Below, one piece after another: positions 130 through 60,959 of a DNA stretch of 64,000 nucleotides. This stretch comes from Chrysomallon squamiferum (Eukaryota; Animalia; Mollusca), in the NCBI GenBank assembly GCA_012295275.1, contig CM022669.1:15996001-16060000 (forward strand). The letters are read 5' to 3'. The stretch's first letter is position 1. Every line of letters begins with the position of its first letter. A program made the position numbers and the translations under genes. The notes beneath the pieces were generated by a model, which saw nothing but the letters and a program-made list of their open reading frames with translations, searched no databases and had not been told where the DNA came from.

Positions 130-868
130 TTATACTCTCGACGTTGTTGTCTTTGAAGTGCTTCCGCGTATGGAAACTCCTTTAGAATCGAACGAATCAA
201 ACCTTGTTCTTCTGTACCTGCGTCTCTCCAGACGGTAACACACAAAACAAAGACAACGCTTGAAATTCCTACGAAAGTTTTGACTGAAAATGCTGTACAG
301 AATCGGATTGGCCGCCGAGTTGAGGTGAGTGATGATCATGACGAAAACTAGAAACTCCCAGTGTTCCGGAAGAGGCGATTTGGAAAAGGCGTTGTACAAG
401 AAGTGAATCTGATGCGGCGAATAACTGGTGAAGTAAATGAGGACGCTGGCTACGAGCATCTTCACGACGCCCTTCCTTGCCCTGATGGTGTCCGCGGCGC
501 GACCGCTGCGGCAGTTGGAGTCCGGCCTCATCTGAAACTGTGTGTTGAGCTTCTCCGTGCTGGCGTAAAGACGTCTTCCGATGATGGCGTACAGAATGAC
601 CTGCACGACCAACGGTAAGAAGTAGAAAAGTAAAGATTCCATGTATTTGAAGATCATGAAGTATTTCTGGTGCTCGTTCCTGTCCATGGAGAATATGATG
701 CGACACAGCGAGACTGGGTGATTGGGCAACACAGGCACGACTTGGTTGAAGATTAATGTCGGTAGTCCACAGCCTATTGACAAAGGCCAGATGCACGCGA
801 TCACAAACAGGATCTTCTTTCGCGTGCAGACGATGTGCGCTTTTATTGGAAATACGATGGCGACGAAC
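130..868 (-). CDS. Class A peptide-type GPCR (NPR-15-like), terminal coding exon: ICL2, TM4-TM7 and C-tail
   Basis: Acceptor TTTAAATTTGCAG|G (AG at 870-869). The exon starts with the last base of an Arg codon, then reads FVAIVFPIKAHIVCTRKKILFVIACIWP. It contains the TM4 Trp, an ECL2 Cys (SLCRI), TM5 FYFLP, TM6 YFTSYSP, TM7 NSAANPILY and helix 8 FRRNF. TAA stop at 132-130. The family name is recalled from motif similarity, not from a search. Confidence 0.93.
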
Positions 869-3800
869 CTGCAAATTTAAACGGAAAAATAAATAAATAT
901 ATGCTTAATCAAAGTTATGGAATACATAGAATTTTTTTTTATATCTTTAATTTTTTTGTTACTTATATTTTACCTTGTTGGCTGCTTTGTGCCATTTAAA
1001 ACTCGATAACGTATCTTTATTGTAGTCCGTTATTTAATTTAAATAAATAAATAACTTAATTAATTATATGTTGCAAGAGTTTTGATATATATGGTGTATG
1101 GACAGACATGTGAATGGCTAGATACAAAAATCAATATATTAAAGATTAGTAATACAAAGTAGCCCAAGACTGATGTATTTAGATATTATTTTTTATCTGT
1201 TAAATTAAAACAAAATCACACTGTATTCGTAAATATAGCATTTCTTTCGAGAAGAAAAAAAAAGAAAGAAAAAGACATAAAAAAATCCAAAATCAATGAA
1301 ACAGTATAGAAAATTAATGTATATATATATATATATACATCCATATGTGTATATGTGTGAGCATAATATAAATAAATATGTTTGTATCTATGTATGGATG
1401 TGTGTATATATCTGTCTGTATGCATGCATGTATGTCTGCATGTATGTCTGTCTGTCTGTATGTATGTATGTATATATGTATGTATGCATGCATGTATGCA
1501 TGTCTGTATGTATGTATGTATGTATGGATGGATGGATGTATTTATGTACTTATGTAAATAATGAGTTTATTAATCCAAATTACTTTTTAACGCTGGATCA
1601 TTTGACGCTGATCTATATTTATTTGTCAGACAAGCTGCACATTAAACTACTAACAGAACAGAACGTTTCACCTAGACACAATTTCCCTTAAGGGTGAATT
1701 TTCTGCCTCGGGAAAACGTGTCTAACGTGATGAGAATTAGTCTAAACTTGTCTAGACAATGCTTCGTTTAAATCCGCGAGTCACGAGAGCTTGCCATAAA
1801 ATAAACGAAGTCATATTAATAATTAAATCCAGCCACGTATGGATATTAATAGTGACACAAAGGTCATGGTTACAGCAATTGAAAAAAAAAAAAAAAAAAA
1901 AAAAAAAAAAAAAAAAAAAAAAATAATAATAATAATAATAATAATAATAAAAAAAATTTGTTGTACTTATTTACTTTTATTGCGCTCTGATTTTTTTTTT
2001 AATTACTATTCATCTGATTTGTTTATTTTATTATTATATTTTGTTTCTTTTGCGCCTTGGGCGGGGTAAAGGAAATGATGAGAGTTTTTATTGTTTACTG
2101 TTCAAGTAGGTGTAATATATCTGTATGATAGATAAAGTGTATCTTCATCGTTGAAGCATAATTGCGCTCACTAATAAGCTGTAGGTACGTATTAATACAG
2201 TACAATATTTGTGTTTGTCACTACAATTATCATGTTCTTTTTATTACTGTTGTTATTGTGTTATTATTTTTATTACAAATGTTTGATTTTCCACAATACT
2301 GGATATATCTACTTGCCAATATCTAAATTATGACATCATTAATTCAGCTTTAGAAAAAACAACAAACAATATTAAAAAAAAAAAAAAAAAAAAAAAAAAA
2401 ACATGACAGGCTATAGTGACATTAATTTTGTGAAACACCTTCTTGTTTTAAAATTAGATTAATTCCTAATACTTTCCATCGAGCCCCTTTCTTTGTAATC
2501 CAGCCACAAAATGAATGTTTGTTGGAGATCCTGGTCAAATGGGGCATTAACCGACTTAAGAACACTGAGCTTACGTTTGCCATTCATGGAGAAGTGTTAC
2601 AGTTAATGCCCAAATAACTTTCTCAAGAATTCTTGGATTTAACTTGCCACTCGTACAAAACTGTTATAGATGATACCCAAATTGCCTAAAGAACTCGATC
2701 GTAAGAAAGATATTACCCGACATTAAAAAAGGAATAAAACTGTAAGAGAATATTTCAAATGATTTATGTACCTAAAGCCCGATTTTTTTTCAAAGATCAC
2801 TGTTAGTGTAGTCCCGTACAAACTATCCCTTTCTGCTAACTGACAAGAATAGCCTACGTGAAAGAAAAAAAACAACAGGGTTTTTGTTTCTCTAGATTCA
2901 TTTTCAGGTGCAAGCAATATTTTGCACAAGCGTACATTAGTAATAAGCAGAAACAATGGGAACTGTCGTTAAACAAATAATATTTACACCGTTATTATGA
3001 AATTATAATAAGAATGTTGTTGTTTTTCATTTTTTTATAGTTTTACACACACACACACACACACACACACACACACACACACACACACAAATACACATGC
3101 ACACAGTAATCTGGCCTGGTATGGAATGCATGCTCTAATTCAAGTTCTATATTGCTAATCGTAATTATCTCAGTGTGGCTTTAATGTATTACGTGACTGC
3201 AATGTATGTATTATCCGCGCTGGACACGTAATTCACTTCTTTTTTAATTCTTCTTTCACATGATCGTTGCATGTTAATGATCAATATTCCGCTGCCACAA
3301 TGAACTGAGACAGTGAAAAACAAACAACAACCCAAAAACGACAGGGAAAAGGAAGAGAGAAAGTGAATAGGAATAAAACAGGGTGAACATTCCATAAAGA
3401 ATTAACTGATGAAGCTATTTTAGTGTCGTGCGTAACATTGAAAAGTTATTGTCCGTATTCTTGTTTTATATTTGCTTTTGTTGTTTGTTTTTTTTTTCTA
3501 ATTTTCTTTCTTCATTTTCATTTTGTTTGACCCTCCGTTCATTTATGACTTGATTCTAGAAAATAAACAGATTTTATGCTGATTCAATCTTTCGTTTAAA
3601 ATTCGATGCTATTTTCAACACACTATTTCATAAAATATCGCAAAGAGATTTTTGTTTGGAAAAGCACCTTGATGTCTTTGATGTTGTAATTTTATTTCTG
3701 TTATTTCTAATATAAAGATTTACTATCCTATAAAAATCTCGTAGCTAGAGAGAATTGTATCCTCCCATTACGATGTGAATGGTGACGTAGTTACAAGGTT

Positions 3801-59355: not shown

Positions 59356-60498
59356 GAGCATCACAGATTAACATAAATTATATTTTCAGAGTAATAACTG
59401 AGAATTTTTATTCTTGTAATATGTTTCTCTTCACATTCATATTGGGTACTGGTCTGATAAACTATCATATAAAATAAAAACTTTTATTTATTTTTTATTG
59501 TTGTTATTTGTTTGTCTATCTCTATTTATTTATTTATTTACACACATACACACACACACATACATATATATATATATAAATGACGAAATGTCACTAAACG
59601 TCGGTTTGAAATAAGTATCAAAACTTAGCGTCCGGAATAAAGACTTGAGTTAAGTTTAGTGAACAATATCTTAACGGCAGTTCTATTAAATTTAAATCAT
59701 ACTGTTCTATGAAAAAAAAATAATAATAATAATTAAAAAAAATAATAATAAAAAATCGGTAAAAAGAAGAAAAGTAAAAAAAATAGCGTGCAATTTATAA
59801 CATAGTTATTAATCAAGGAATCCTGAACAGCTAGACAGCTGGATACAGATGATAATTATTTTATTGTTGTTTTTTTTCTCATTTTTTATCTTATTTTTTT
59901 TTATTTGCTTTATATTTCCTATCAGTGTAACTGAAATAGAAACATTATATGAGGATGAATGTAAATAGTCTTCAGTCATGTATCCATTATTCGAAAAACG
60001 CTGTTTGTGGCGACAAAATGATTAATAGCGGATTTATTGCTGCAGTCTTGCAGTTTCATGGATCATTTCATTTGGCAAAGTTCAGGGAAAAAGCAGTTTC
60101 TTATCCCACGATGACAGGGTTTTATTATTAAAAGAGAAAAGTTCACTGAGTGGAAATGGTGTCTTAATTATCATGATTTATCCGTTGACAACAGAAATGT
60201 GATAGCGTTAATGACGTGATTGATTTGCCTCCCTTGTTTGTCTTTTTTTATCATAATCATGCGTAAGAAACCTCTATCTTTATTAGTTAACAAAAATAGT
60301 ATACTTTATTGTTTCTTTAAAACATTTCTTTGAAATGTAAAAAAATCGGTATTAAGTGACTTCCAAAAGGCCAAGGGTTAAATAAAGCTTCAATAATATT
60401 GCTTTCTAGAATCAGCTAGCAAAACTAGTTTACGGTTTAGATTAGATTAATGACATTTAATAAATAAAAGATATAATATAATAATCTACTATTCATAC

Positions 60499-60959
60499 CT
60501 TTCTATACTAACGCCCAGCATCAACAGAATGGAGGAATACAGGGAAGTAACCAAGACATAGCGGTTGGCCTTACAGGAAACAGATCCAAGTAACCAGCCT
60601 TTGTTGTTGACGAACTGAACAATTTCCGGAACTCCAAACACCATGATAAACAAGTCTGCCAGGGCTATGTTCAGAATGAAAAGATTGGTCTCTGATTTCC
60701 TCATCTTGGTGTTGAACAATATCACTAGAATAACGAGGCAGTTTCCAAAGATCCCCAAGAAACAGATGACGAAGAAAATAATGGAAAGAAAAGTTATGCT
60801 GATAAGACTCGTATCACGAGAAGAACTAAGTGTGATGTTTTCAGGGAATGTTGTCTGTGTGCAGTTCTCGGATGAGTTTATGTAAGCAGACTCGAAGGAT
60901 ATTTGTTCCAAACTGAGACCGAAATGTCCAGTCCAGATTGTTGTAATATTGCTGACCAT
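60499..60959 (-). CDS. GPCR first coding exon B, paralog of exon A: N-terminus and TM1-TM3
   Basis: ATG at 60959-60957 in ATTATGG context (MVSNITT...). Sequons NIT, NSS, NCT, NIT; GN, NIALAD, FGVPEIVQFV, GWLLG, CK; ends SIE-R. Donor AG|GTATGA (GT at 60498-60497), at the same position and phase as exon A. About 57/100 residues identical to exon A over TM1-TM3 by hand alignment, with no stops or frameshifts. Confidence 0.9.

What the first reader, a model, noticed from the sequence alone, without database searches (positions are those of the whole stretch)
130..60959. Candidate modular GPCR locus: two variable TM1-3 first exons, one constant TM4-7 exon
Seen in the sequence: two intact paralogous exons (A at 21718-22151, B at 60499-60959) in the same orientation, each with its own ATG and glycosylated N-terminus. 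Each stops at the same phase-2 donor (ER: AG|GT). Only one matching acceptor exon (AG|G TTC GTC...) is present, at 868. A tandem gene duplicate should place a ~740-bp TM4-7 exon between 22151 and 60499, yet no such ORF is in the track and I saw no remnant. A+constant gives 390 aa and B+constant gives 399 aa, both in frame. Established knowledge: variable-first-exon/constant-exon loci exist (UGT1A, vertebrate clustered protocadherins), and some peptide GPCRs such as insect ETHR swap alternative 3' halves. Inference: promoter choice could swap the N-terminus, TM1-3 and ECL1, which form part of the ligand pocket, onto a shared TM4-7/ICL3/C-tail signalling module. More variable exons may lie beyond 64000. 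I cannot confirm that this is undescribed.
Basis: partly seen in the sequence, partly recalled or inferred. Interest (0 to 1): 0.85.

Follow-up and report, generated by a model that had tools for sequence, protein, structure and literature searches.

The report
One snail receptor, two front halves
A snail neuropeptide-receptor gene has two intact, long-diverged versions of the exon for its first three membrane helices but only one exon for the last four within this window, so it likely makes two receptors, as gene models in two abalone species already show, and the two are predicted to bind the same peptide while likely differing in where they are made and how readily they switch on.

Summary
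Observation confirmed. On the minus strand, exons B (60959-60499) and A (22151-21718) each encode an N-terminus plus TM1-3 and end at the same phase-2 donor. One TM4-7 exon (868-130) follows, giving 399-aa and 390-aa frames. No other TM4-7 trace is in the window. The gene is a gastropod 'neuropeptide receptor 15-like' orphan GPCR, 94% identical in TM4-7 to Gigantopelta aegis.

Outside support: RefSeq models in two abalones give isoforms X1/X2 with different TM1-3 and an identical last 242 residues. In another sequencing run, 4 of 5 coding differences in B are silent. B groups with abalone X2, but long branches leave independent duplications unrejected. No junction read was seen.

Correction: A and B are 56% identical, yet all 14 pocket positions examined are identical, so a ligand swap is unlikely. 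B instead changes conserved activation and inner positions. Promoter choice versus cassette splicing is unresolved. This is a new variant of a known design.

The parts
60499..60959 (-). Alternative first coding exon B (distal): N-terminus with 4 N-glycosylation sequons plus TM1-TM3, phase-2 donor in the ER codon
   Evidence: Orthologue P0329 is 82% identical over 100 columns. Groups with abalone isoform X2. 4 of 5 coding differences in run X2 are silent.
21718..22151 (-). Alternative first coding exon A (proximal): N-terminus with 3 sequons plus TM1-TM3, same phase-2 donor
   Evidence: 92% identical to Gigantopelta aegis XP_041364529.1 over 109 aa. The start Met is conserved in P0195 and P0353.
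22152..22170 (-). Acceptor-like site (pyrimidine run, TAG|G) 1 nt upstream of A's ATG; A may be entered from an untranslated leader exon
   Evidence: top 6% of 3545 minus-strand AG sites on a crude score of my own, and the only site scoring 8 or more within 450 nt upstream of A. A prediction only.
130..868 (-). Constant exon C: end of TM3, ICL2, TM4-TM7 and C-tail, with the stop codon
   Evidence: 94% identical to G. aegis, 74% to abalone. Two low-depth contigs of RNA run X1 cover parts of it.
869..910 (-). 3' splice acceptor of the shared intron (pyrimidine tract, TTGCAG|G)
   Evidence: top 2% of AG sites on the crude score

Best explanation
This is likely one neuropeptide GPCR gene that makes two full-length receptors by splicing either of two duplicated first coding exons (N-terminus plus TM1-3) onto its single TM4-7 exon, and the two forms are predicted to bind the same, still unknown, peptide while likely differing in expression and in how readily they activate. 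Shown: two intact in-frame exons, one constant exon in the window, identical residues at the 14 pocket positions examined, and B-specific changes at columns that the family otherwise keeps (2.46 L to I, 3.43 L to M, 3.47 C to S, ICL1/2.38 V to E, 1.60 D to N). Inferred: (1) The family's single coding intron in the ER codon let the first exon be duplicated as a module. (2) B is spliced to C, skipping A, as in abalone isoform X2 (about 0.8). (3) The choice is made by separate promoters (about 0.6) rather than by cassette splicing behind a shared leader. (4) The duplication predates the split between this snail lineage and abalones (about 0.7). (5) Positions 2.46 and 3.43 belong to the hydrophobic barrier that holds class A GPCRs inactive (recalled, not from a call), so B likely has a shifted basal activity or coupling.
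For: Geometry and frames; no second TM4-7 exon. H. cracherodii XP_071107557.1/XP_071107564.1 and H. rufescens XP_046358925.1/XP_046358926.1 are named isoforms X1 and X2. Each pair shares an identical last 242 residues starting at the ER of TM3 and differs throughout TM1-3. P0329 (B-type) and P0353 (A-type) both list a longest contig of 447,103 bp, so they are probably on one contig of a third lineage. B, P0329 and abalone X2 share four residues; among 147 distinct ungapped first halves only P0329 and X2 carry all four. Trees join the B types with X2 at 93/90, 93/92 and 93/97. AU tests marginally reject B with the paralogues g2 or g3 (p 0.042 each). In run X2, B is intact with its donor; 4 of 5 coding differences are silent and the fifth is I to V in the N-terminus. 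The contigs over B and C have similar depth (53.1 and 52), a weak hint against a collapsed double C. 78 of 100 short family ORFs end exactly at ER, which fits a conserved intron there. Pocket identity: 14 of 14.
Against: No read or contig joins B or A to C: 3 RNA runs gave two short C contigs at depth 2-3 and nothing on B. The abalone isoforms are automatic gene models whose read support I could not see. X2-type named proteins were found for 2 of the 4 Haliotis species seen, and no B-type protein for G. aegis. The B-X2 join carries a long-branch warning and is never starred. AU tests do not reject independent duplications (p 0.09; 0.22 and 0.051). The grouping of A with abalone X1 appeared (95/69) but was unresolved. 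The 14 pocket positions are conserved across most of the family, paralogues included, so their identity is expected and does not exclude affinity differences from the N-terminus or ECL1. The 2.46 and 3.43 changes are not in abalone X2. Neogastropods have two full g1-type TM4-7 copies, so whole-gene duplicates do occur in this family.
Confidence: 0.6

Rival explanations
1. One reading: the same two-isoform gene, but the swap changes ligand selectivity because the N-terminus, ECL1 and TM1-3 are exchanged.
For: A and B differ at 44 of 100 core positions, including four in ECL1 and 2.66, and their N-termini are unrelated. Both types are kept in other lineages.
Against: 14 of 14 pocket-facing positions examined are identical, including E2.60, R3.29 and Y3.37. 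TM4-7 and ECL2 are shared. The positions were chosen from recalled GPCR structure and numbered from motifs; no model was built.
Confidence: 0.2
2. B is the first exon of a separate, interleaved gene whose own TM4-7 exon lies left of position 1, or was lost or collapsed in the assembly between 22 and 60 kb.
For: The family forms a cluster: three paralogues on one 54.6-Mb G. aegis contig, and neogastropods have two g1-type TM4-7 copies. Run X2 holds diverged TM4-7-like pieces from elsewhere in the genome (records 4 and 5). Only 129 bases left of C are visible.
Against: No N and no remnant in the window. Abalone X2 is modelled on the same TM4-7 as X1. No fourth TM4-7 type from Gigantopelta or Haliotis is among the 120 of 125 hits listed. 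B with g2 or g3 is marginally rejected. Depth over C is about equal to depth over B.
Confidence: 0.09
3. B is a left-over exon of a partial duplication, either silent or making only a truncated three-helix protein by reading into the intron (the frame stops three codons past the donor).
For: No RNA contig on B in 3 runs. B evolves faster than A: its branches are long. The stop lies at 60489.
Against: The frame and donor are intact here and in run X2, with 4 of 5 differences silent. The orthologue P0329 is 82% identical over 100 columns and keeps the pocket residues. Abalone X2 is modelled as full length. The RNA runs were shallow even for C.
Confidence: 0.07

Closest known systems
Haliotis cracherodii and H. 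rufescens 'neuropeptide receptor 15-like' isoforms X1/X2 (XP_071107557.1/XP_071107564.1; XP_046358925.1/XP_046358926.1)
   Same: Orthologous gene (TM4-7 74% identical). Two different N-terminus+TM1-3 halves are joined to an identical remainder at the same ER position.
   Different: Automatic models only; none of my paper searches found a description. Whether X2 is the strict orthologue of B is favoured but not proven.
Insect ecdysis-triggering hormone receptor ETHR-A/ETHR-B (PMC10455322 and PMC3510462, passages read)
   Same: One rhodopsin-type peptide GPCR gene gives two conserved subtypes by alternative splicing; they are expressed in different neurons and respond to the same hormone.
   Different: In ETHR the alternative part is the 3' portion (recalled; the passages read did not give the exon layout). 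Here it is the 5' half. This receptor is not an ETH receptor but lies in a neighbouring clade.
Anopheles gambiae allatostatin-A receptor GPRALS1-RA/RB (PMC4489612, passages read)
   Same: A neuropeptide GPCR with two predicted transcripts that share 7 exons and differ in a duplicated exon 1.
   Different: Those copies are highly similar, predicted in one assembly and unconfirmed. Here the two exons are 56% identical and both types occur in several lineages.
UGT1A and clustered protocadherin loci; tandem duplicated exon substitutions (PMC9741552, abstract and passages read)
   Same: Homologous alternative exons on a shared remainder, giving isoforms that are often tissue-specific.
   Different: Those clusters have many variable exons, each with its own promoter (promoter detail recalled). 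Here there are only two exons, promoters are not shown, and the protein is a seven-helix bundle split between TM3 and TM4.
'Spiralian specific 1' orphan GPCR clade of Thiel et al. 2021 (PMC8557429; section 7, passages and supplement parts 98, 99, 206 read); human TRH receptor as the closest solved structure
   Same: Family members from nemerteans, a brachiopod, a phoronid and Crassostrea gigas (EKC21149) sit together between the ETH and trissin clades in the annotated tree. TRHR is the best PDB hit for abalone X2, E=7.5e-37.
   Different: The label was read from machine-extracted text of a radial tree, so the name is inferred. The TRH/EFLGamide receptors are a separate clade in that tree. No ligand was given in the passages read.

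Membership tests
Rhodopsin-class GPCR (PF00001) | Complete 7tm_1 domain with GN1.50, D2.50, C3.25, E/DRY-like and NPxxY motifs | tested here: met
   A or B covers model positions 1-82 and C covers 84-260. The motifs are visible in the translations; ERF replaces DRY.
Spiralian NPR-15-like orphan receptors, g1 paralogue | TM4-7 groups with mollusc g1 members, apart from g2 and g3 | tested here: met
   C is sister to G. aegis XP_041364529.1 (100) inside a 15-row gastropod clade (97) (quick tree)
'Spiralian specific 1' clade (PMC8557429) | Clade apart from ETH and trissin receptors that includes phoronid members | tested here: inconclusive
   Family motifs were found in nemertean, brachiopod and oyster sequences of the supplement, and a phoronid sequence is similar by eye. 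The label was inferred from PDF layout and by exclusion. No tree of my own included those references.
ETH receptors | Orthology with insect ETHR and Lottia ETH_114263 | tested here: not met
   The Lottia and Capitella ETH-labelled sequences lack the family motifs (judged by eye and by motif search). The motifs occur in 0 of the 8 supplement files searched for PMC6660194. The paper reports ETH receptors absent from phoronids, while this family has a phoronid member.
Trissin receptors | Orthology with Drosophila TrissinR and mollusc trissin-like receptors | tested here: not met
   The trissin-labelled mollusc sequences are plainly different proteins (by eye)
Variable-first-exon/constant-exon locus (UGT1A or protocadherin type) | Paralogous first coding exons in tandem with the same donor phase | tested here: met
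Variable-first-exon/constant-exon locus (UGT1A or protocadherin type) | A single shared constant part | tested here: met
   One TM4-7 exon in 64 kb; identical 242-residue end in the abalone isoform pairs. DNA beyond the window was not available.
Variable-first-exon/constant-exon locus (UGT1A or protocadherin type) | Transcripts join each variable exon to the constant exon | tested here: inconclusive
   No junction in the 4 runs laid; present as RefSeq isoform models in two abalones
Variable-first-exon/constant-exon locus (UGT1A or protocadherin type) | Each variable exon has its own promoter | not testable with these tools
   Only contigs were available and they cannot show starts. The acceptor-like site before A's ATG leaves cassette splicing open.
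Variable-first-exon/constant-exon locus (UGT1A or protocadherin type) | A large array of variable exons | tested here: inconclusive
   Two in the window and two isoform types in abalone. Sequence beyond 64000 was not seen.

The most novel reading that the evidence does not exclude
An ancient exon duplication, kept since snails of this lineage and abalones parted, lets one orphan spiralian neuropeptide receptor swap its whole TM1-3 half while keeping its pocket. The B half retunes the activation lock (paired changes at 2.46 and 3.43, plus 3.47 and ICL1), so one gene makes a normally gated receptor and a receptor with different basal activity or G-protein coupling for the same peptide. That would be a natural half-receptor chimera pair that separates binding from activation.
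Probability: 0.3. Interest if true: 0.62.

Novelty: new variant of a known kind. Interest (0 to 1): 0.44.

Why it matters
GPCR isoforms usually differ in termini or loops, or are truncated (own knowledge). Swapping a folded three-helix half on a constant four-helix half is uncommon and gives a ready-made natural chimera pair: shared TM4-7, ICL2, ICL3 and tail, with different TM1-3. Once the ligand is found, it tests directly what TM1-3 contribute to binding, basal activity and coupling. It also matters for annotation: the only g1 model found for G. aegis is A-type, and X2-type proteins were found for 2 of 4 Haliotis species, so mollusc receptor inventories and deorphanisation screens probably miss the B form. 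The design principle itself is known (ETHR-A/B, UGT1A, protocadherins), which caps the interest.

Tried and rejected
Whole genome: none held, so DNA beyond the window and exon counts per scaffold could not be checked.

Junction reads: 4 runs (3 RNA, 1 unlabelled that behaves as DNA), all contigs, were laid on C and on B. No junction was seen. The RNA runs gave two C contigs at depth 2-3 and none on B, which is no evidence of absence.

Homologue searches: B against longer proteins gave only 2 distant g2-type hits. The representatives search found, among the 61 top rows I classified, only an abalone X2-type genomic ORF, P0183, with the B signature. Of 63 new proteins, one (P0329) was B-type. Metagenome scans found nothing for B and 13 distant loci for P0001, which I did not use.

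Family names: ETH receptor and trissin receptor were considered and rejected. A search for the Lottia model number gave 3 unrelated-looking papers, seen as a listing only.

Splicing variants: a B-A-C product through the acceptor before A would be in frame (544 aa). I rejected it as a functional form because three extra helices would invert the topology of the rest (inference).

Other checks: the sigma-70 promoter scan is irrelevant to an animal gene and was ignored. Four non-repeat intron ORFs have no Pfam match. No structure was predicted, because the joined B+C protein cannot be submitted and coordinates are not returned.

Paper searches for a description of this arrangement: searches returned 0 papers; some searches returned listings in which none appeared to describe it. 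The library lacks most subscription journals.
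Full report
Observation. The window is AT-rich animal DNA full of microsatellites, with no N. 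Three GPCR exons lie on the minus strand. B (60959-60499, 461 nt) and A (22151-21718, 434 nt) each start with ATG, carry 4 and 3 N-glycosylation sequons, encode TM1-3 and stop after AG in the Arg codon of the ER motif, before GTATGA and GTAAGT. C (868-130, 739 nt) follows a TTGCAG acceptor and completes the codon. A+C is 390 aa and B+C is 399 aa, without internal stops. Pfam 7tm_1 positions 1-82 fall in A and in B, and 84-260 in C. No second TM4-7 exon or remnant was found by tblastn or blastn, or by a profile of 103 family TM4-7 halves on stop-read-through six-frame translations (381 bits for C, next best 5.1). A profile of 38 first halves finds A and B only. A and B are 56% identical over 100 residues and their flanks are unrelated, so the duplication is old.

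Identity. C is 94% identical to Gigantopelta aegis 'neuropeptide receptor 15-like' XP_041364529.1, which is an A+C protein, and 74% identical to abalone proteins. The organism is therefore likely a close relative of that snail (inference). The family has three paralogues (g1, g2, g3) on one G. aegis contig, and C is g1. In Thiel et al. 2021 (PMC8557429; I read section 7, passages, and supplement parts 98, 99, 206 and search hits), nemertean, brachiopod, phoronid and oyster members of this family lie between the ETH and trissin clades. The ETH- and trissin-labelled mollusc sequences are different proteins, and both clades are reported absent from phoronids. By exclusion the family is their 'Spiralian specific 1' clade; the label was read from machine-extracted figure text and is inferred. 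The human TRH receptor is the closest solved structure (E=7.5e-37 for abalone X2). The ligand is unknown. 78 of 100 short family ORFs end exactly at ER, which fits one conserved coding intron there and explains how the first exon could be duplicated as a unit.

Evidence that B joins C. (1) In H. cracherodii and H. rufescens, RefSeq lists isoforms X1 and X2 whose last 242 residues are identical and whose TM1-3 halves differ throughout. I could not see the read support. My recollection is that such variant models normally rest on transcript evidence. For H. asinina and H. rubra only the X1 type was found, and for G. aegis only the A type. (2) An unnamed ENA assembly has a B orthologue (P0329, 82% over 100 columns) and an A orthologue (P0353), both with a longest contig of 447,103 bp; that they share a contig is inferred from the length. 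(3) In run X2, B and its donor are intact. 4 of 5 coding differences are silent and one is I to V in the N-terminus; 4 of 4 scored differences in C are silent. (4) Contig depth over B (53.1) and C (52) is similar, a weak hint against a collapsed second C; the tool warns that depth is not copy number. (5) AU tests marginally reject B as a g2 or g3 first exon (p 0.042 each). Against: no junction was seen. The 3 RNA runs gave only two C contigs at depth 2-3 and nothing on B, and the DNA left of position 1 is unavailable.

Age. Three trees join B with abalone X2 (93/90, 93/92, 93/97), never starred and twice with a long-branch warning. B, P0329 and X2 share four residues. Only P0329 and X2 among 147 distinct first halves carry all four; singly they occur in 3, 21, 27 and 5 of the other 145. 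Independent duplications are not rejected (p 0.09, 0.22, 0.051). A single duplication before the two lineages split, a Palaeozoic event by my recollection, is favoured at about 0.7. The trees used 50, 24 and 22 selected rows, mostly named full-length proteins; one named row without a matching split motif was dropped.

What the swap changes. Numbering from GN1.50, D2.50, C3.25 and R3.50, the 14 positions I picked from recalled class A structure as pocket-facing (1.35, 1.39, 2.53, 2.57, 2.60, 2.61, 2.64, 2.65, 3.28, 3.29, 3.32, 3.33, 3.36, 3.37) are all identical in A and B, and in P0353 and P0329. Most of these columns are conserved across the whole family, so this is expected, but it argues against a change of ligand. 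The 44 differences fall mainly in variable columns of TM1, ECL1 and TM3. B also departs at columns the family keeps: 2.46 (L in 96%, I in B), 3.43 (L in 91%, M in B), 3.47 (C in 93%, S in B), 1.60 (D in 86%, N in B) and 2.38/ICL1 (V to E, seen in under 1% of other rows). P0329 shares all five; abalone X2 shares only 3.47. L2.46 and L3.43 are part of the hydrophobic barrier of the inactive state (recalled). So B likely differs in activation threshold or coupling, besides its N-terminus and probably its expression. This is a prediction; no structure or assay was run.

Mechanism of choice. An acceptor-like TAG|G lies 1 nt before A's ATG, in the top 6% of 3545 AG sites on a crude score; no comparable site lies within 200 nt of B's ATG. 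Oyster orthologues have isoforms that differ in short N-terminal extensions, which suggests upstream exons in this family. A and B are therefore alternative first coding exons. Separate promoters remain the simplest way to keep them mutually exclusive (about 0.6), but cassette choice behind a shared leader is open. A B-A-C join would be in frame (544 aa) but is topologically implausible.

Comparison and novelty. Insect ETHR-A/B are conserved splice subtypes of one peptide GPCR, expressed in different neurons (PMC10455322, PMC3510462; passages). Anopheles GPRALS1 has predicted transcripts with a duplicated exon 1 (PMC4489612; passages). UGT1A and protocadherin clusters are the textbook variable-constant loci (PMC9741552; passages). 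PMC6660194 and PMC8398477 (passages) were used only for the ETH question. Ten paper searches turned up no description of this locus, but the library lacks most subscription journals, and supplements of bioRxiv preprints were not seen. An earlier scan note reports a similar TM1-2 swap in an arthropod receptor (e1-7506285); I did not check it.

Verdict: a real feature and a new variant of a known kind, already implicit in automatic abalone annotation. Interest 0.44.

Noticed in passing
window 35578-35659 (-): An intact-looking tRNA-Ser(GCU) gene in the intron between exons B and A, on the same strand (Rfam 66.3 bits; ARAGORN). Ordinary.
   Followed up: yes
window 22152-22170 (-): The acceptor-like site 1 nt before A's ATG is in phase with B's donor, so a B-A-C join would stay in frame (544 aa, ten helices). 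Probably non-functional, but worth checking in long reads.
   Followed up: partly
window 1-67: Contigs of runs X2 and X3 show a second copy of about 50 bases (18-67) further along the 3' flank of C (tables 5 and 8), suggesting a short repeat just beyond the window edge.
   Followed up: no
window 868: Run X2 differs at the first base of exon C. By the sequence, the split codon remains Arg.
   Followed up: partly
proteins P0010, P0015, P0009, P0061: Nucella and Babylonia have two full g1-type TM4-7 copies, and Potamilus has two g1 genes. Other molluscs appear to have duplicated the whole gene where this lineage and abalone duplicated only the first exon.
   Followed up: partly
proteins P0001, P0051, P0063; P0060, P0121, P0003: The three family paralogues share one contig in G. 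aegis, and g1 and g2 have close accession numbers in abalones, suggesting a conserved gene cluster. Cross-splicing between cluster members was not tested.
   Followed up: no
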